Positions 25,410 to 35,525 of a stretch of 37,581 bases of DNA are shown here, in pieces (positions within the stretch are counted from its first letter, which is position 1; each line of letters starts with the position of its first letter). Location of the stretch: the IMG/VR virus record IMGVR_UViG_3300021560_000037, positions 1-37,581 of that record, one strand, 5' to 3'. This DNA is from a virus. The position numbers and the translations under genes are program-made. The notes beneath the pieces are model-generated. The model made no database searches. It saw nothing but the letters and a program-made list of their open reading frames with translations, and had not been told where the DNA came from.

Positions 25410-25583
25410 TCAGCCCTCCACGACGCGACTGGCTTCTTTGCGGACCAAGCCCGGGCGCGCCTTCGCTTTTGGCACATAGCCGGCTTTGGTGCGTTTGACT
25501 TCGATGCCCAGCCAGCATTGCGGGATATCGGCAAGCTCGCGGATGATGCGGTAGAGGCGGTTGTCTGTGGTTTCGATGATCAT
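25410..25583 (-). CDS. Hypothetical protein (57 aa)
   Basis: Start at internal ATG (MIIETTDNRLY...) with GGGAG upstream; track ORF 25410..25640 extends into the AT-rich promoter region. Confidence 0.45.
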   Translation of the reverse strand: MIIETTDNRLYRIIRELADIPQCWLGIEVKRTKAGYVPKAKARPGLVRKEASRVVEG

Positions 25584-26945: not shown

Positions 26946-27130
26946 GCCGCCACCCTCTCTCGCTGGCGTATCCAGGCTTTGATCTGTACTGGGTCAAAGG
27001 TCCACACGCCATCAAACTTTGCCGCGCCGGGTATCTTGCCGGCGGCCGCCATCTCCTGGACCTTGCGCAACGACAGCGACGTAACGCGGGCAACCTCGGC
27101 GGGGCGAATCCGGGGGACGAGGTCGATCAT
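26756..27130 (-). CDS. xis: Excisionase-type (HTH_17/AlpA-like) DNA-binding protein; recognisable domain in 26945-27130, ORF runs on 190 nt into int
   Basis: MIDLVPRIRPAEVARVTSLSLRKVQEMAAAGKIPGAAKFDGVWTFDPVQIKAWI; ATGA overlap with upstream gene; immediately upstream of int. Confidence 0.65.
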   Translation of the reverse strand: MIDLVPRIRPAEVARVTSLSLRKVQEMAAAGKIPGAAKFDGVWTFDPVQIKAWIRQRERVAACQTDTLKNAVRTTTDVYVLPDENIGELFEQVTLKRRRSGSKHGAKSSNAPPSVIPIAPRLKR

Positions 27131-27444
27131 TGTTTGCGCACTCCCCCATTCAGGCCATTCAATTCATCGCGTATAACCGCTCGCAGTCGCGCTCGACGCC
27201 GCTTTTTAAAAGCCTTGTCGGCCGCAGCAATTGCTTGGGAAAACGACGAGGTGGCGGCCGGAGGGGTAAGGATCGGTGGACGCAGCGCCTCCTCCAGTTG
27301 CGCCAATGCAGATTGGTCAAAAACGATAGACCGTCCTGTCTTAATTGGTCGGATTTCGGGATGCTCGGCCAACCGACGGCGCACTGTCCACACGCTGGTG
27401 CGCAACCGGTCGGCAACTTCCTCAATCGTCAGATGTCGTTCCAT
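27127..27444 (-). CDS. Second HTH_17-type DNA-binding protein (105 aa)
   Basis: Internal ATG of track ORF 27127..27729: MERHLTIEEVADRLRTSVWTVRRRLAEHPEIRPIKTGRSIVFDQSAL. Confidence 0.6.
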   Translation of the reverse strand: MERHLTIEEVADRLRTSVWTVRRRLAEHPEIRPIKTGRSIVFDQSALAQLEEALRPPILTPPAATSSFSQAIAAADKAFKKRRRARLRAVIRDELNGLNGGVRKQ

Positions 27445-27790
27445 GGGCGGGGGCCTCCCATTGGCGAATCGTTGTTGTGTAGCAGCGGGCGTGGTGCTCG
27501 GGGCAGTAGGGGCTGTCGGGCACGGTGCGCTCGAGGCACCATTGCGGGTGCCGGGGATCCTTGTTGGCGATAAAACGGCACTCGAAGGGGCTCGGCCACG
27601 GCGCCGGCGGCGGGACGATCGGCTCCGGCTCGGACGGCCGCGGCTTGCGTGGCACGGCGAGCCCGTAGCGAAAGCGGGCTCCAGCGACCGCACCTTTACT
27701 GATCCCGAGCCGCTCGGCGATCTCCGCATTCGAGCGGCCGAGGGTGGCCATCTTGCGCAGGTATGTGACGAGCGGGTCGCTCCAGATCAT
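27422..27790 (-). CDS. GcrA-like cell-cycle regulator homologue (122 aa)
   Basis: MIWSDPLVTYLRKMATLGRSNAEIAERLGISKGAVAGARFRYGL (GcrA N-domain) and CRFIANKDPRHPQWCLERTVPDSPYCPEHHARCY (GcrA C-domain pattern C.WPiGDP...FC......PYC..H....Y). Confidence 0.75.
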   Translation of the reverse strand: MIWSDPLVTYLRKMATLGRSNAEIAERLGISKGAVAGARFRYGLAVPRKPRPSEPEPIVPPPAPWPSPFECRFIANKDPRHPQWCLERTVPDSPYCPEHHARCYTTTIRQWEAPAHGTTSDD

Positions 27791-28112
27791 ACGAATGCTT
27801 TCGGAGGCAGAGGAATGCCAAGCCTCTGTGGACGCCACCAATGCAGGCAATTAGGGTGGATGTTGATGTGGTCGGATGAAGGGAGATGCAGCTGCATCGC
27901 CGCTTCATCGTCGGCGAAAAACAACCGAGCGATCCCATTTCTGCCCAATTCGGGACGCGGTTCGCGCGCGAGACGCTGACGTGATCCCAGCCTTCGCCCC
28001 ACGAGGCGATGACCCGCAATGTCCGCTGATCGATGCAGCTCGGGATATTCCAGGCCCCGCCATCGCTGCCGAGGGTCAGGCAGTATTGGCGAATCGGCGC
28101 AAGATCTCTCAT
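27787..28112 (-). pseudogene. Conserved prophage protein split by a 1-nt frameshift (or sequencing error) at a G-run
   Basis: N-part MRDLAPIRQY...ASWGEGWDHVSVSRANRVPNWAEM in one frame, C-part IARLFFADDEAAMQLHLPSSDHINIHPNCLHWWRP in the -1 frame (track ORF 27787..28002); junction at CCC 27934-27936; C-part stop overlaps gcrA-like ATG. Confidence 0.6.
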
Positions 28113-28143
28113 CCGCTCCTCGCCTGGATGTAGCTGCTGCTGC

Positions 28144-28572
28144 TCATGCCGCGATCGCCTCGCCGCCGGTATGCGCGAGCAGATCGTCGAGGGCGATCCC
28201 GAGGTCGTCGGCAATGACCCGGAACGCCGCGTCATAAAACGCCTGCGCCTCGTCCTGGCTCATGCTGTCGAACGCGGTCGATTCCGGCACGAGCACGCGC
28301 CGGCCATCGATGAGGCGCACGACGTCGACATGGCCGGTGGCGACTTTTAACGCGGTATGCAACTGCTCAGCGGTGTTCCATTTTCCCGTTGCTTCGACGA
28401 CGCGATTGAGAATGGTCCAGTACAGTGAATTTTGCGCGATCGAGCGCTTGCGCAGCAGCTTGATGGCGATGCGTTGGCCATCCTCAATTTTAGCGAGCGC
28501 GTCGGCGGCTTCGCGACTGACCGCTCGGAGCGCGTTGCCGCGCTTTTCCATGATCAGCGGGTCGTGGTGCAT
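28144..28572 (-). CDS. NinB/Orf- or DUF1367-like phage protein (142 aa)
   Basis: ...RKRSIAQNSLYWTILNRVVEATGKW.. and ..ESTAFDSMSQDEAQAFY.. resemble the RSxxQN..W / sTs.m..ef pattern of lambda NinB-type proteins; AGGA SD. Confidence 0.4.
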   Translation of the reverse strand: MHHDPLIMEKRGNALRAVSREAADALAKIEDGQRIAIKLLRKRSIAQNSLYWTILNRVVEATGKWNTAEQLHTALKVATGHVDVVRLIDGRRVLVPESTAFDSMSQDEAQAFYDAAFRVIADDLGIALDDLLAHTGGEAIAA

Positions 28573-28580
28573 CTTACGGT

Positions 28581-29025
28581 CCTAACCTTGCCTTGCCATG
28601 CCCTGCTCCGCCGAGCCCGACCCGGCCCCGTCCCGCCCTGCGTAGCCACGCCTCACCCAGTCCTGCCGCTCCCGGCCGAACCGAACCATGCCCAGACCGA
28701 CCCAACATAGCCTTGCCGGGCCCCGCCATGCCTCGTCCTAGCCGACATCACCACGCCATACCGGAGCCCACATGGCCTCGCCACACATCGCCAGTCCTCG
28801 CCATACATCGCCACACCAAACCCCGCCCGACCAAACCGTGCTGCGCCTGTGCTCACCGGGCCATGCCGGACCTTGCCTGGCTGCGCCTGTGCTCACCGGG
28901 CCATGCCGGACCTTGCCTTGCCGCGCCCAGCCAGCCCCGCCCCATCTGGCCATGCCCCTGCCTGACCGAGCCGAACCTTGCCCACCCCTACCGCGCGCTG
29001 CCAAATCGTGCCGCGCCACACCGAG
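28581..29025. repeat. Array of 89 in-register degenerate pentanucleotide units, CCNNR on plus strand (YNNGG on the transcribed minus strand)
   Basis: Hand count: pos1 C 80/89, pos2 C 77/89, pos5 purine 79/89, no indel over 445 nt; about 48% C vs 23% G on plus strand; fills the gap between stop 29027 and the SD of the 28572 gene. Confidence 0.9.
28841..28920. repeat. 40-bp tandem duplication inside the pentamer array (39/40 identical)
   Basis: ctgcgcctgtgctcaccgggccatgccggaccttgcct[g/t]g twice in a row. Confidence 0.95.
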
Positions 29026-29026
29026 T

Positions 29027-29623
29027 TCATTCCGCTGCTTGCATCAGCTTTTGCTGCAATACGGCCCAGGAGGTGGCTTGGAACCGACCAAACGCCCCGC
29101 CTTTCTCCGGCCGGTAGTCGAGCAGACCAAGCTTGCGGCCGCCCTCCTGGATCAGTTGGTGAACGGTCGTCGGGTCGATCATCTCGTCATCGACCTCAAG
29201 CGTAAACTCGATGTTCCAGAGATTAAGGCGCGGCCGGTGACGCATCACCCGTCCCTTGGTCGATGGAATGACAACGGCGCGACTGTCGACCTCAAATTCT
29301 GTAAGAGGGTTTCCTTCAATATCGCGCAGCACGATCTGATCCTCGAGTACGAGGACCGCTGCGGGCATGATGTACTTTAGTGATTTGCGCGAGCCCCGCT
29401 GTTTGTGGGCGGCGCCGGCTTCGCGGAGCATGCGAGCAATGGCGCTTCCCGGCAGGAACAGGTGACCATCTGCGGTCCGATACGCGACTTTCTCTGCAGC
29501 CTCGCGCGGGTCGATACGCTGAATGTGCACTTTGCGGGTGGTTTGTTCGAGCTCGACCTCTTCATCAAACCGGTGCATCAAAAGCGGTGTCAGTCCCTGA
29601 CATACGCAGATGAAGGTCTTCAT
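29027..29623 (-). CDS. Hypothetical protein (198 aa) with RAMP/Cas7-like motif pattern (tentative)
   Basis: AGGAGG SD; MKTFICVCQGLTPLLMHRF..., LFLPGSAIARMLREAG, ...DYRPEKGGAFGRF; stop codon abuts the pentamer array. Confidence 0.7.
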   Translation of the reverse strand: MKTFICVCQGLTPLLMHRFDEEVELEQTTRKVHIQRIDPREAAEKVAYRTADGHLFLPGSAIARMLREAGAAHKQRGSRKSLKYIMPAAVLVLEDQIVLRDIEGNPLTEFEVDSRAVVIPSTKGRVMRHRPRLNLWNIEFTLEVDDEMIDPTTVHQLIQEGGRKLGLLDYRPEKGGAFGRFQATSWAVLQQKLMQAAE

Positions 29624-29638
29624 TGTTTTGCCTCCTGG

Positions 29639-29836
29639 TTAATCCTCTCCCCGGCGCTCATTGGCATGCATCCGGACGACCTGCGCGCCTAGCCGCCGGA
29701 GGTCGGCCAGCACCTCCTCGGCGACCTTCTCGGCGACCCGACGGGTGTTGAGGGCGGTATTTGTCGGCCGCCCGATCAACACCTCCTCGAGCTTATCCTC
29801 GATCAGCCGGCGCAGGAGATCGCTTTCATCGGTCAT
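29639..29836 (-). CDS. Hypothetical helical protein (65 aa)
   Basis: Track ORF in the early operon; start codon lies inside a 21-bp perfect palindrome. Confidence 0.5.
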   Translation of the reverse strand: MTDESDLLRRLIEDKLEEVLIGRPTNTALNTRRVAEKVAEEVLADLRRLGAQVVRMHANERRGED

Positions 29837-29873
29837 CGGCGCACTGCGCCGATGGCATGTTCGCTTCGCTCAC

Positions 29874-30053
29874 TCACTGCGCTGCCATAAGTTTGCGCCG
29901 GACCTCCCTTGCCCGTCCGACCAGTCCCTCACGTTTGGCCCGCTCTTTTGGGTCTGAGCGGCACAACTCATCGGCAATGCCCTGGTGATGCCGCTCCCAC
30001 CATTTCAACGCCTCCTCGGTCACAGCAATGTCGTCCGCTGTCAGTTGTTCCAT
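29874..30053 (-). CDS. Hypothetical protein (59 aa; below track cutoff)
   Basis: Hand translation MEQLTADDIAVTEEALKWWERHHQGIADELCRSDPKERAKREGLVGRAREVRRKLMAAQ; no clear SD. Confidence 0.4.
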   Translation of the reverse strand: MEQLTADDIAVTEEALKWWERHHQGIADELCRSDPKERAKREGLVGRAREVRRKLMAAQ

Positions 30054-30084
30054 TGTTGCATGCTTATCCGGTTATTACCCATCG

Positions 30085-30462
30085 CTACCGCCCCTTGATT
30101 TTGCGGTTGGGCGTGACCCCAGCGGCAGCGCCCGCGATGAACATGCCGCGTCCCCAGCCAATAGGGCCGTTCAGTTTCGTCGTCAGCTTTGGCTCTGGCG
30201 CGTTGTGAAAAGTCGTCCCTGGCTTCCAATTCTCGGTTGCTGTTCGACTTTTTACGTCCTCACCTTTAAGCATAGCGTCGATTTTTGCCCCCTCGGCTGC
30301 CGTCAGTTGCTTGTGACCGCTACGCCGAGAAATATGACCGTCAGACTTCACCCAAAAGGCGAAGCGTCGCCGCTCGTGCGAAACGTCGAGCCAAGGCAAG
30401 TGCTCAACTTCGACCTTTTGAGCGATTGTGAGGTCTTCGTAATCGACGTAGGGCATCAACAT
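30085..30462 (-). CDS. Hypothetical protein (125 aa)
   Basis: ACGGAG SD; locally lower GC. Confidence 0.55.
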   Translation of the reverse strand: MLMPYVDYEDLTIAQKVEVEHLPWLDVSHERRRFAFWVKSDGHISRRSGHKQLTAAEGAKIDAMLKGEDVKSRTATENWKPGTTFHNAPEPKLTTKLNGPIGWGRGMFIAGAAAGVTPNRKIKGR

Positions 30463-30516
30463 CTAGCTCCGTTGGGCATTAACCGGATAAGCATGCATTG
30501 TTGCCTCCCTCGCGTT

Positions 30517-34317: not shown

Positions 34318-34758
34318 ATGCGTTCAGCCGCGGCCAAAACCGCACGGAGTGCGCCAGCACTGCGCCTGACCGCGCCGGTGGTGCGCGAGGCCGTGCTGCA
34401 CAAGCAGATCGCCGACACGTTCCGCCTCGAGATCGCTCCGGCCGGGCGCGTCTCCAAAGCGGGTGTGGTGTGGTGGTCGGTCGACATGGCGGCTTATGCC
34501 GGCAACGTGCCCGGGATCCGCACCGGCCGCGGCTGTATCGCCGGCGTGCCGGACATGATCGTGCTCCACGAGGGACGGGCGTTCTTTCTCGAGCTGAAGG
34601 CCGAGGACGGGATCCTCTCACCGGCGCAGTGCACCGTCGGTGCGGCGATCCTGGTGTGCGGGGCGCGGTACGGCGTGGTGAGGGATGCGGCCGAGGCGGT
34701 TGCTCATCTCGACGCGTGGGAGATTCCGCGGGCGCATCGCGTGGTGGGGCTGCGGTGA
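34318..34758 (+). CDS. VRR-NUC domain nuclease
   Basis: ...GCIAGVPDMIVLHEGRAFFLELKAEDGILSPAQ... = PD-(D/E)XK core of VRR-NUC proteins. Confidence 0.7.
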   Translation: MRSAAAKTARSAPALRLTAPVVREAVLHKQIADTFRLEIAPAGRVSKAGVVWWSVDMAAYAGNVPGIRTGRGCIAGVPDMIVLHEGRAFFLELKAEDGILSPAQCTVGAAILVCGARYGVVRDAAEAVAHLDAWEIPRAHRVVGLR

Positions 34759-35525
34759 TGGCGAAGATCCCGTACATGCGTTGGTACCCCGCGGATTACG
34801 CTGGCGACACGACACATTTGACGCGGGATCAGGACGGCGGCTACCGACTTTTGCTCGATTCTATGTGGCTTCGCGATGGCAAATTGCCCGACGATGACGC
34901 GCAACTTGCTGTAATCACTAAATGTTCGACACTCGATGAGTGGCACCTGTTGCGCAAAATTTTAGCGCCGTTTTTTAAAATTTCGCATGGCATTTGGCGA
35001 CAGAAACGGCTCACCCGAGAGCTACGCGAAATGTATGACCTCCAGCAAGTCCGCAGAAACGCTGGGAAAAAAGGCGCTGTACAGAGATGGCAAACGCATA
35101 CTTTTGCCAATGGCAAAACAATGGCTTTGCCAACCCCCCCTACCCCTTCCCTTCTTCTTCCCCCCAAACCCCCTAATAATAACCCTTCCCTACCCCCTCC
35201 ATATCCAGATTCTCCGCCGCCTACGGCGGCGCGCGCCCCGAACGGGCGGGCGGCTTCGCCGGACAAGGATCTCGAGAGCGAGGGGGGTGCCCTTCTCGGC
35301 GAGCGCAAACGCGGGCTGATCCGCAAGATGGTGGTGCGGTATGGGCCCGAGGTGGTGCGCGGCGCCCTCGCCGCGGTCGCTCGCCGACAGCCTGCTGAGC
35401 CGATCCCCTACTTCCTCAGCTGCTGCGAGGAGCACCGGCCCGGACCCGATCCGCCGGCCGCGGCGGAAAGCAATCCTGGACCCCAAGGACCGCCGCCCAA
35501 GGTTTACGTCCCCCTGGAGGGCTGA
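34758..35525 (+). CDS. DUF1376 (YdaU-like) protein with Pro-rich linker; putative replication-associated
   Basis: ATG overlaps previous TGA; MAKIPYMRWYPADYAGDTTHLTRDQDGGYRLLLDSMW..GKLPDDD matches the DUF1376 N-terminal pattern. Confidence 0.65.
   Translation: MAKIPYMRWYPADYAGDTTHLTRDQDGGYRLLLDSMWLRDGKLPDDDAQLAVITKCSTLDEWHLLRKILAPFFKISHGIWRQKRLTRELREMYDLQQVRRNAGKKGAVQRWQTHTFANGKTMALPTPPTPSLLLPPKPPNNNPSLPPPYPDSPPPTAARAPNGRAASPDKDLESEGGALLGERKRGLIRKMVVRYGPEVVRGALAAVARRQPAEPIPYFLSCCEEHRPGPDPPAAAESNPGPQGPPPKVYVPLEG

What the first reader, a model, noticed from the sequence alone, without database searches (positions are those of the whole stretch)
28581..29025. 445-nt array of 89 in-register degenerate pentanucleotide units, (CCNNR)n, filling an intergenic gap of the early operon
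From 28581 to 29025 every consecutive 5-mer stays in one register, with no indel. By hand count, position 1 is C in 80/89 units and position 2 is C in 77/89. Position 5 is a purine in 79/89 (G 51, A 28), and positions 3-4 are essentially free. The plus strand is about 48% C against 23% G. The minus-strand transcript, which is the sense strand of both flanking genes, would therefore be (YNNGG)n with a GG every 5 nt. The array begins 1 nt after the stop of the 198-aa ORF (29027) and ends at the Shine-Dalgarno of the NinB-like gene (ATG 28572), so it is co-transcribed with them. Five is not a multiple of three, so all frames give equivalent 5-residue-periodic, stop-poor pseudo-ORFs (28593..29117, 28772..29380, 28738..29019, 28653..28856). 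The constraint is on the nucleic acid, not on a protein. It is not a CRISPR array, a perfect microsatellite or normal-length iterons, and I know of no described phage element like it. Hypotheses:
- The G-rich non-template strand and transcript form a persistent R-loop. It could act as a replication primer or origin (no initiator, helicase or primase is visible in this genome) or as a recombination hotspot, by analogy with pentamer-based class-switch regions.
- Two-tier G-quadruplex RNA or DNA.
- A scaffold for a protein binding 5 nt per subunit; RecT, the NinB-like protein and the 198-aa protein are in the same operon.
- A Chi-like or nuclease-decoy tract, or a dense CC/GG target for the phage C5-methyltransferase.
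Basis: partly seen in the sequence, partly recalled or inferred. Interest (0 to 1): 0.92.

Follow-up and report, generated by a model that had tools for sequence, protein, structure and literature searches.

The report
Phage VIPR guide-RNA repeat array
The 445-nt pentamer array is real and is the guide-RNA array of a VIPR system, a phage-encoded, CRISPR-related RNA-guided DNA-silencing system first described in 2026 preprints; its first guide matches the ninB gene of related rival phages, so it is a new example of a recently described kind.

Summary
Window 28578-29025 holds 89 in-register pentamers that read (GGYNN)n on the minus-strand transcript. Period-5 power is 29.0, against 0.69 +/- 0.44 in shuffles.

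It is a VIPR locus (bioRxiv 10.64898/2026.04.26.720920 and .720927).
- **Protein.** The adjacent 198-aa ORF (29027-29623, minus) is a Vipr protein. A profile of it matches only the SUSP1 Vipr in PDB (E 2.5e-8). hhalign probability against a SUSP1-clade Vipr is 96.9%. The model has a Cas7/Csm3-like fold, and the residues that hold GGY in SUSP1 are conserved.
- **Relatives.** 87 of 90 loci encoding relatives carry GGYNN arrays beside the gene. GG stays 97-99% identical between close relatives while NN drops to about 50%.
- **Target.** Under VIPR's 1-nt-skip code, units 0-10 match ninB in 20 loci from related phages lacking vipr (the longer ones syntenic), at 19-21 of 22 bases with the skipped base at the codon wobble. 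The phage's own ninB scores 18/22, which is chance level.
- **Differences from the characterised type II.** There is no 3' tail, no vap1 homologue, and one uninterrupted 89-unit array.

No robust target was found for the other units. RNA expression and processing are untested. Verdict: a real feature and a new member of a known kind.

The parts
29027..29623 (-). vipr gene: 198-aa minimal RAMP (Cas7-like) protein, predicted to bind one GGYNN unit per protomer
   Evidence: PDB sequence search hits only 36pp 'SUSP1 Vipr protein' (E 1e-4 for the single sequence; E 2.5e-8 for profile A1). hhalign of A1 against the Alf5 (SUSP1-clade) Vipr gives probability 96.9%, E 1.5e-10, over 173 columns. It is 32% identical to the LESphi2 Vipr-like protein. 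The AF2 model has pLDDT 84.7. Foldseek top hits are type VII Cas7, Csm3 and Cas7-11 at E about 1e-6, and viral RAMP-like proteins at TM 0.66-0.69. H17, R130, D169, Y170 and R171 align with the SUSP1 GGY-contact residues H17, R138, D177, W178 and R179 and are conserved in A1. PHROG 4652, function unknown.
28578..29022 (-). vrRNA array: 89 GGYNN units (87 of 5 nt, one of 6 nt, one of 4 nt). It starts 4 nt after the vipr stop codon and ends 5 nt before the ninB ATG
   Evidence: Period-5 power is 29 against 0.69 +/- 0.44 in shuffles. G1 77/87, G2 77/87, Y3 81/87 (C 52, T 29). All 16 NN dinucleotides occur.
28968..29022 (-). Guide 1 (units 0-10). Its NN string is GT GC AC TT AG GC AG TG AA TC TC. 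Under the 1-nt-skip code it matches ninB of related phages
   Evidence: Exact 18-base pattern scan of IMG/VR and extension of the hits. 19-21 of 22 NN bases match in 20 ninB loci, with the skipped base at the codon wobble. Skip-rule control: 58 hits with skip 1, 0 with skip 0 and 1 with skip 2.
28933..28962 (-). Register anomaly: a 6-nt unit (28962-28957), four units in a +1 register (28956-28937) and a 4-nt unit (28936-28933). This may be punctuation between vrRNAs
   Evidence: Dynamic-programming parse. Relatives show 1-nt-overlap junctions between sub-arrays (L002, L037, L039). The VIPR paper describes 'staggered arrays' with 1-nt overlaps. A function as a boundary is inferred, not shown.
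28840..28927 (-). 40-nt (8-unit) tandem duplication inside the array, 2.2 copies
   Evidence: TRF: period 40, 95% matches, score 162. The NN strings of units 21-27 and 29-35 are identical. The Logan contig breaks here.
28144..28572 (-). ninB/orf-family gene immediately downstream. It is the homologue of the gene matched by guide 1 in related phages
   Evidence: Pfam NinB E 1.6e-5; PHROG 319, NinB/Orf recombination mediator, E 3.4e-18.
28337..28368 (+). The phage's own ninB site corresponding to guide 1. It matches 18/22 NN bases. The own allele is EQLHTALKVA, against EELH(L/I/V/N)ALKVA or QELHLALKVA in relatives
   Evidence: 18/22 is also reached in about one third of unit-order permutations, so it is not above chance.
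29639..29836 (-). 65-aa ORF that flanks the cassette on the upstream side. In relatives lacking vipr its homologue directly abuts ninB
   Evidence: tblastn synteny in L102, L111, L116, L117, L118 and L124.

Best explanation
The array and the 198-aa gene upstream of it form a VIPR (Viral Interference Programmable Repeat) cassette carried by a temperate phage.

Inferred from homology with the SUSP1 and P. fulva systems:
- The leftward early transcript carries vipr, then 89 GGYNN units, then ninB.
- Vipr protomers polymerise on the repeat RNA, one per unit. They sequester each GGY and expose the NN dinucleotides.
- The filament binds double-stranded DNA whose sequence reads NNxNNx... (the one-nucleotide-skip code), forms an R-loop triplex and blocks transcription.

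Shown here:
- The protein is a Vipr homologue with a RAMP fold and conserved GGY-contact residues.
- The RNA-sense repeat is GGY/NN.
- Relatives of the protein almost always carry such arrays, with conserved GG and hypervariable NN.
- The first 11 units spell, under the skip code and in wobble phase, a conserved segment of ninB in related phages that lack vipr (the longer loci are syntenic with the window). The phage's own ninB differs at three of those codons.

The most likely role is interference with competing related phages or prophages. Binding inside ninB would act as a roadblock in their early-left operon, upstream of the GcrA-like, Xis-like and integrase genes. The remaining roughly 75 units presumably encode further guides whose targets are not in the sequence I could search.
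For: **Periodicity.**

**Published description of VIPR.** GGY/NN vrRNA, one protomer per repeat, the 1-nt-skip rule, wobble-phased targets in competing phages, variable array architectures.

**Protein.**
- PDB hit only to SUSP1 Vipr.
- hhalign probability 96.9% over 173 columns against the Alf5 Vipr.
- Model pLDDT 84.7. Best structural matches are Cas7/Csm3 and viral RAMP-like proteins.
- H17, R130, D169, Y170 and R171 are conserved.

**Relatives.**
- 772 homologues.
- 87/90 loci have GGYNN arrays next to the gene.
- Positive controls Alf5 and LESphi2 are detected by the same scanner.
- The closest relatives (L094, 77% identity, 70 units; L095, 63 units) have the same tail-less architecture but share no NN strings with the window.
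- In pairs with 92-94% identical vipr, GG identity is 97-99% and NN identity 49-52%.

**Target.**
- The IMG/VR pattern scan hit a ninB homologue with 20/20 NN bases over units 1-10.
- 20 ninB loci match 19-21/22.
- Skip-rule control: 58 hits against 0 and 1.
- None of the target loci encodes vipr, and the VIPR cassette sits in the p65|ninB slot.

**Not an artefact.**
Against: - No RNA data exist. Expression, processing and ends of the vrRNAs are unknown.
- The array has no conserved 3' tail or pseudoknot and no vap1 homologue. The characterised type II systems have both.
- 24 of 87 units depart from GGY. GGY substitutions abolished silencing in SUSP1.
- Only one guide has a robust target. Three further exact-pattern scans and local scans gave only chance-like hits.
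- The phage's own ninB reaches 18/22 (82%), formally above the paper's 80% cut-off. Self-binding cannot be excluded, although 18/22 also arises by chance in this genome.
- An uninterrupted run of 71-89 units is far longer than the 9-16 (at most about 30) repeats reported for a single vrRNA.
Confidence: 0.92

Rival explanations
1. It is a VIPR-derived array that is largely decayed or non-functional. On this view it is a slippage-expanded simple-sequence tract kept by drift, with at most the first guide still active.
For: 24/87 units are degenerate. There is an 8-unit tandem duplication. No tail or vap gene is present. No target was found for units 11-88.
Against: Independent relatives keep equally long tail-less arrays (61-98 units) with strong GG conservation and different NN content. 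That pattern indicates selection on the repeat frame with turnover of NN. Guide 1 itself contains three degenerate units (GAT, CGC, GGG), yet its NN bases match the target perfectly. The searchable sequence space was small.
Confidence: 0.05
2. It is a structural nucleic-acid element acting in cis: a G-rich R-loop-forming origin or primer, a G-quadruplex tract, or a recombination hotspot. These are the first reader's leading hypotheses.
For: The strand asymmetry is strong, with GG every 5 nt on the transcript. No Rfam family matches.
Against: The RNA folds no better than shuffles (z 0.14). The variable positions carry target-matching information under a specific 1-nt-skip code. The array always travels with a Vipr gene, in varied genomic contexts. 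A DUF1376 protein is present at 34470-35525; from my own recollection, not tested here, such proteins accompany phage replication modules, which would weaken the 'no initiator' premise.
Confidence: 0.02
3. It is a protein-coding low-complexity repeat or an assembly artefact.
For: Stop-poor ORFs overlap the array in several frames.
Against: A 5-nt period with no period-3 or period-15 power is incompatible with one reading frame. An independent assembly reproduces the first 134 nt exactly. Dozens of independent contigs show the same architecture.
Confidence: 0.01

Closest known systems
VIPR type II systems (Escherichia phage SUSP1/Felixounavirus and the P. fulva prophage clade; bioRxiv 10.64898/2026.04.26.720920 and .720927)
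   Same: - A roughly 200-aa Vipr RAMP protein with conserved GGY-contact residues.
- A same-strand YNNGG/GGYNN repeat RNA beside the gene.
- Conserved GGY and hypervariable NN.
- The 1-nt-skip code with the skipped base at the codon wobble.
- A target in a competing related phage, and a phage or prophage context.
   Different: - The protein is only 25-32% identical.
- There is one uninterrupted 89-unit array instead of 9-16-unit vrRNAs, each capped by a conserved tail or pseudoknot.
- No vap1 homologue is present.
- The array is wedged between vipr and ninB inside an operon, with no free intergenic space.
- Many units are degenerate.
VIPR 'staggered arrays' and other array architectures (types I, III-VII of the same paper)
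   Same: Contiguous repeat tracts without long linkers. Junctions shift register by one nucleotide: a 6-nt/4-nt unit pair in the window and 1-nt overlaps in L002, L037 and L039.
   Different: I could not see the figures, the phylogeny or the data tables. The type assignment, and whether this clade was in the authors' NCBI-based set, are therefore unknown. The window has only one such +1/-1 pair and then 71 units with no shift.
Class 1 CRISPR-Cas backbone (Cas7/Csm3 filament on crRNA)
   Same: RAMP fold (Foldseek E about 1e-6). In those systems protomers polymerise on the guide RNA at a fixed pitch and a thumb flips bases periodically (established knowledge).
   Different: The RNA period is 5 nt, with three bases sequestered, against 6 nt with one base flipped. 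The guide is non-contiguous. There is no repeat-spacer array and no cas1/cas2, Cas6 or other cas genes.
TRAP binding to (G/U)AG repeats, and CsrA/RsmA sponge RNAs with GGA repeats (analogy from my own knowledge, not tested)
   Same: Short purine-rich motifs repeated at about 5-nt spacing serve as a multimeric protein-binding platform on an RNA.
   Different: Those RNAs carry no guide information in their spacers. The proteins are unrelated and there is no DNA targeting.

Membership tests
VIPR system | A Vipr protein: a small single-RRM RAMP with a G-loop and a thumb, homologous to characterised Viprs | tested here: met
   (sequence and profile homology to SUSP1/Alf5 Vipr). (confident model with a Cas7/Csm3-like fold). 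The G-rich loop GLLDYRPEKGGAFGRF lies before the last strand. The thumb hairpin carries the invariant IPSTKGRxMRHRPR motif.
VIPR system | Residues that read GGY in SUSP1 (H17, R138, D177, W178, R179) are conserved | tested here: met
   They align with H17, R130, D169, Y170 (aromatic in place of W) and R171. All are invariant or nearly invariant in 39 homologues, except Y170, which is an aromatic substitution. E71/M72 align with S60/A61, so they are not conserved.
VIPR system | A tandem YNNGG (GGY/NN) repeat tract of at least 4 units next to vipr on the same strand | tested here: met
   89 units starting 4 nt after the vipr stop codon. 87/90 related loci have such tracts.
VIPR system | GGY is conserved and NN is hypervariable among related loci | tested here: met
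   No NN strings are shared with any relative. In pairs with 92-94% identical vipr, GG is 97-99% identical, Y 83-96% and NN 49-52%.
VIPR system | NN dinucleotides specify DNA targets by the 1-nt-skip rule, mostly wobble-phased in coding sequence of competing elements | tested here: met
   Met for guide 1 only: ninB of 20 related loci at 19-21/22, in wobble phase. Controls gave 58 hits with skip 1, 0 with skip 0 and 1 with skip 2. No robust targets were found for the other units.
VIPR system | vrRNAs are expressed, processed and co-purify with Vipr; the complex represses transcription | not testable with these tools
   Needs small-RNA sequencing, pull-down and reporter assays.
VIPR type II (SUSP1/P. 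fulva) | Each vrRNA of 9-16 repeats ends in a conserved structured 3' tail (a pseudoknot in the SUSP1 clade) | tested here: not met
   No linker or tail lies within or after the array. The last unit overlaps the ninB ribosome-binding region. Folding is no better than shuffles and there is no Rfam match. Tails are evident in the controls Alf5 and LESphi2 and in more distant relatives.
VIPR type II (SUSP1/P. fulva) | The accessory gene vap1 lies next to vipr | tested here: not met
   No window ORF resembles the Alf5 or LESphi2 neighbour gene. No neighbour gene is conserved across the 90 loci.
CRISPR-Cas | A repeat-spacer array with cas genes (an adaptation module and several RAMPs) | tested here: not met
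   There are no direct repeats separated by spacers and only one RAMP gene. The neighbours are ordinary phage early genes.

The most novel reading that the evidence does not exclude
The tail-less, uninterrupted array is up to about three times longer than any single vrRNA reported: 89 units here and up to 97-98 in relatives L037 and L039. It may represent a distinct way of making or using VIPR guides. One possibility is a single very long Vipr filament whose segments address different targets. Another is processing at +/-1 register shifts or by Vipr itself, rather than at structured tails. In addition, the 82% match of guide 1 to the phage's own downstream ninB could give weak autoregulation as well as exclusion of relatives.
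Probability: 0.2. Interest if true: 0.6.

Novelty: new member of a known kind. Interest (0 to 1): 0.42.

Why it matters
VIPR is a very recently described RNA-guided DNA-recognition system, proposed to be ancestral to CRISPR RAMP effectors.

- This locus adds an uncultivated temperate phage, apparently from soil to judge by the soil-metagenome relatives. Its cassette is the bare minimum: one protein and one repeat tract.
- The cassette sits in a cargo slot between conserved early genes.
- Its first guide is directed at the allele that related phages lacking vipr carry at the neighbouring gene.
- That gives a concrete, testable pair for competition experiments: the guide with the relatives' ninB allele, against the self allele with three codon changes.
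- It also shows that long tail-less arrays are the norm in a whole Vipr clade known mostly from metagenomes. This bears on how vrRNAs are processed.
- For the genome scan, it shows that a tool-free reader can pick out this class of element from sequence alone.

Tried and rejected
- **Rfam.** Gathering thresholds over the whole window and an E-value scan of 27800-30000 found nothing. There is no hammerhead or other known RNA.
- **blastn of 27500-30500 against GenBank phages.** No match.
- **Single-sequence AF2 model.** Unusable, pLDDT 41. It was replaced by the alignment-based model.
- **Self-targets.** The best matches within the window (17/20, 18/22, 19/24) do not exceed the other skip rules or unit-order permutations. 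Two of the 18/22 self hits lie in or near the terminase gene (865-896) and at 25466-25497. The terminase hit is not wobble-phased. Both were treated as chance.
- **Targets among the 90 Vipr loci.** None.
- **Exact-pattern IMG/VR scans for units 47-54, 23-30 and 29-36.** They gave 11, 17 and 9 hits in unrelated contexts, consistent with chance.
- **Two ambiguous leads from those scans.**
  - Two in-frame sites (17/18 NN bases, and 16/16 over 8 units) in one 415-aa methyltransferase-like ORF of a 42-kb phage contig (L131/L155/L166).
  - A 16/20 match of units 27-36 to the 5' part of the L101 ninB.
- **Structural half of the closest relative (L171, L172).** No hits.
- **Conserved accessory (vap) gene.** No vap1 homologue was found, and no neighbour gene is conserved.
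- **Protein-coding reading of the array.** Rejected, because there is no period-3 signal.
- **VIPR type (I-VII).** Could not be assigned, because the paper's supplementary tables and figures are not held.

Full report
**Observation.**
I reread 28300-29700 and recounted. From 28581 to 29025 there are 89 consecutive 5-mers. Position 1 is C in 80, position 2 is C in 77, and position 5 is a purine in 79 (G 51, A 28). Positions 3-4 are near-uniform.

Fourier power at period 5 is 28.99. In 1000 dinucleotide-preserving shuffles the mean is 0.69, the sd 0.44 and the maximum 3.35. No other period from 2 to 20 exceeds 0.8, so there is no codon periodicity. The 17 strongest sliding windows in the 37.6-kb sequence all overlap this array.

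Read on the minus strand, which is the sense strand of both flanking genes, the units are GGYNN. They run from 29022 to 28578. A dynamic-programming parse finds 89 units. One is a 6-nt unit (28962-28957) and one is a 4-nt unit (28936-28933). Together they put four units into a +1 register and then restore it. 63 of the 87 five-nt units are perfect GGY.

TRF reports a 40-nt (8-unit) tandem duplication at 28840-28927. An independent Logan assembly reproduces 2235/2235 bases, including the first 134 nt of the array, and stops inside that duplication. The feature is real, highly non-random and not an assembly artefact.

**What it is.**
The 198-aa ORF immediately upstream (29027-29623, minus) has no Pfam family. 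It belongs to PHROG 4652, of unknown function. Against all PDB sequences it hits one entry only, 36pp 'SUSP1 Vipr protein'. The E-value is 1e-4 for the single sequence and 2.5e-8 for a profile of 39 homologues.

[quoted passage not shown] They report the following.
- A roughly 20-kDa phage-encoded RAMP protein (Vipr) polymerises on a vrRNA made of YNNGG repeats, one protomer per repeat.
- It sequesters each GGY and presents the NN dinucleotides.
- The NN bases pair with double-stranded DNA whose sequence reads NNx NNx ... [quoted passage not shown] - The complex represses transcription of competing phages, satellites or prophages.

The minus-strand transcript of the array is exactly this kind of RNA.

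**Tests of membership.**
- **Protein homology.** hhalign of the family profile against the Vipr of Escherichia phage Alf5 (SUSP1 clade, fetched) gives probability 96.9% and E 1.5e-10 over 173 columns. The window protein is 32% identical to the Vipr-like protein of Pseudomonas phage LESphi2.
- **Contact residues.** The SUSP1 residues that contact GGY are H17, R138, D177, W178 and R179. They align with H17, R130, D169, Y170 and R171, which are invariant or nearly so in the family, with Y replacing W.
- **Fold.** An alignment-based AlphaFold model (pLDDT 84.7) matches Cas7 of type VII, Csm3 of type III-A and Cas7-11 (Foldseek E about 1e-6, TM about 0.5). It also matches uncharacterised viral proteins and a viral 'RAMP superfamily protein' (TM 0.57-0.69).
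- **Relatives.** The protein has 772 homologues in metagenomes. I fetched 90 loci encoding relatives from IMG/VR and GTDB MAGs. A simple GGYNN scanner finds arrays next to the gene in 87 of them, nearly always on the same strand. The same scanner finds nothing else in the window and detects the published-type vrRNAs of Alf5 and LESphi2.
- **Architecture in close relatives.** The closest relatives share the window's layout: a long tail-less array directly after vipr that runs into the next gene's ribosome-binding site. Examples are L094 (77% identity, 70 units), L095 (63 units) and L004 (65 units). L037 and L039 reach 97-98 units.
- **NN turnover.** No NN string is shared between the window and any relative. 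In pairs whose vipr genes are 92-94% identical, GG positions are 97-99% identical and NN positions only 49-52%.

**Target of the first guide.**
I converted units 1-9 to a 1-nt-skip pattern and scanned IMG/VR. That gave three hits. One lies in a ninB homologue of a related phage (L098/L104), where units 1-10 match 20/20 NN bases. Every skipped base falls on the codon wobble position of ...EELHLALKVA....

I then fetched ninB relatives from IMG/VR and JGI metagenomes. Units 0-10 match 19-21 of 22 NN bases at the homologous site in 20 loci.

As a control I scanned 278 kb of these loci with 9-unit windows and a threshold of 16/18. The 1-nt-skip rule gave 58 hits, against 0 for no skip and 1 for a 2-nt skip.

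The longer of these target-carrying contigs are syntenic with the window: cI-like, RecE-like exonuclease, p333, p65, ninB, GcrA-like, HTH and integrase. Several of the 20 are short fragments holding little more than ninB. None of them encodes vipr. In most that carry a p65 homologue, p65 abuts ninB. The 1.05-kb cassette of vipr plus array is therefore an insertion in that slot. L101 carries a different two-gene cargo in the same place.

The phage's own ninB has EQLHTALKVA at the site and matches 18/22. Matches of 18/22 occur by chance in about one third of unit-order permutations against this genome. The self site is therefore not a significant target, although binding cannot be excluded.

**Other guides.**
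No robust targets were found.
- Three further exact-pattern scans gave 9-17 unrelated hits each.
- The structural half of the closest relative has no match.
- Two leads remain ambiguous. One is two in-frame sites in a methyltransferase-like ORF of a 42-kb phage contig. The other is a 16/20 match of units 27-36 to the 5' part of one ninB allele.

**How it most likely works.**
- **Shown:** the components, the code-consistent target, and the evolutionary pattern.
- **Inferred by homology:** Vipr coats the repeat RNA. The complex binds the relatives' ninB DNA as a gapped R-loop triplex. It blocks their leftward early transcription upstream of the regulator, excisionase-like and integrase genes.
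- **Unknown:** how an 89-unit tract is cut into guides. There are no tails, no ribozymes and no vap1 homologue. The +1/-1 register pair at 28962-28933 resembles the 1-nt-overlap junctions of the 'staggered arrays' mentioned in the preprint and seen in L002, L037 and L039. However, 71 units follow without any shift. The companion preprint cites up to about 30 repeats per vrRNA.

**Comparison and novelty.**
The locus meets every sequence-testable defining feature of a VIPR system. It fails two features specific to the characterised type II: the structured 3' tail and vap1. I could not assign it to one of the seven published types because the supplementary data are not held.

It is a new member of a known, very recently described kind. 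Its clade-typical long tail-less array may be a processing variant.

The origin/R-loop, G-quadruplex, Chi-decoy and methylation-target ideas are not supported.

Noticed in passing
L101 8288-9907 (IMGVR_UViG_3300012971_000052): In the closest syntenic relative, the slot between the p65 homologue and ninB holds a different two-gene cargo instead of VIPR: a 344-aa ORF that looked ParB/Srx-like to my eye, and a 192-aa ORF. The slot therefore looks like a hotspot for variable cargo.
   Followed up: partly
The 42-kb phage contig carries its own vipr. This could be a second target or chance.
   Followed up: partly
window 28889 / L170 end: The independent Logan contig for the same phage ends inside the first copy of the 40-nt tandem duplication. 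The copy number of that duplication (2.2) is therefore supported by one assembly only.
   Followed up: yes
window 34470-35525 (+): A 351-aa ORF has a DUF1376 domain (E 8e-19). As I recall, such proteins accompany phage replication modules (not tested here).
   Followed up: no
window 27422-27850 (-) and 27127-27729 (-): A GcrA-like regulator ORF (Pfam GcrA, E 1e-6) overlaps a 200-aa HTH_17 ORF in another frame, so gene calls in this GC-rich stretch are ambiguous. From my own knowledge GcrA is typical of Alphaproteobacteria, which hints at such a host.
   Followed up: no
L075 5-7568 (IMGVR_UViG_3300012971_000018, 112-kb contig): Thirteen separate GGYNN arrays (10-47 units) are spread over 7.5 kb on both sides of one vipr homologue. 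This is far more than in other loci and may be a multi-array or multi-vipr VIPR island.
   Followed up: no
L089 4001-4714 (Candidatus Woesearchaeota MAG) and L023 3798-3912: An archaeal MAG encodes a 35%-identical Vipr with GGYNN arrays downstream. In L023 the only array lies on the strand opposite to vipr.
   Followed up: no
L153, L159, L161, L162, L163, L169 (sites listed): Six unrelated-looking viral contigs share a conserved short element. It translates as ..CCIPDQAHKPLPINPNHKFNGKMF.. in a 46-codon open frame. It matches units 23-32 at 19/20 NN bases. Its nature is unknown and the match may be chance.
   Followed up: no
L048/L074, L064/L066, L049/L053 downstream of vipr: More distant members of the same Vipr family (43-46% identity) have modular arrays of 10-30 units. 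These are separated by conserved 22-60-nt linkers that include short hairpins, for example GGTTTCTCTGGCGAGAAA. Tail-bearing and tail-less architectures therefore coexist within one protein family.
   Followed up: partly
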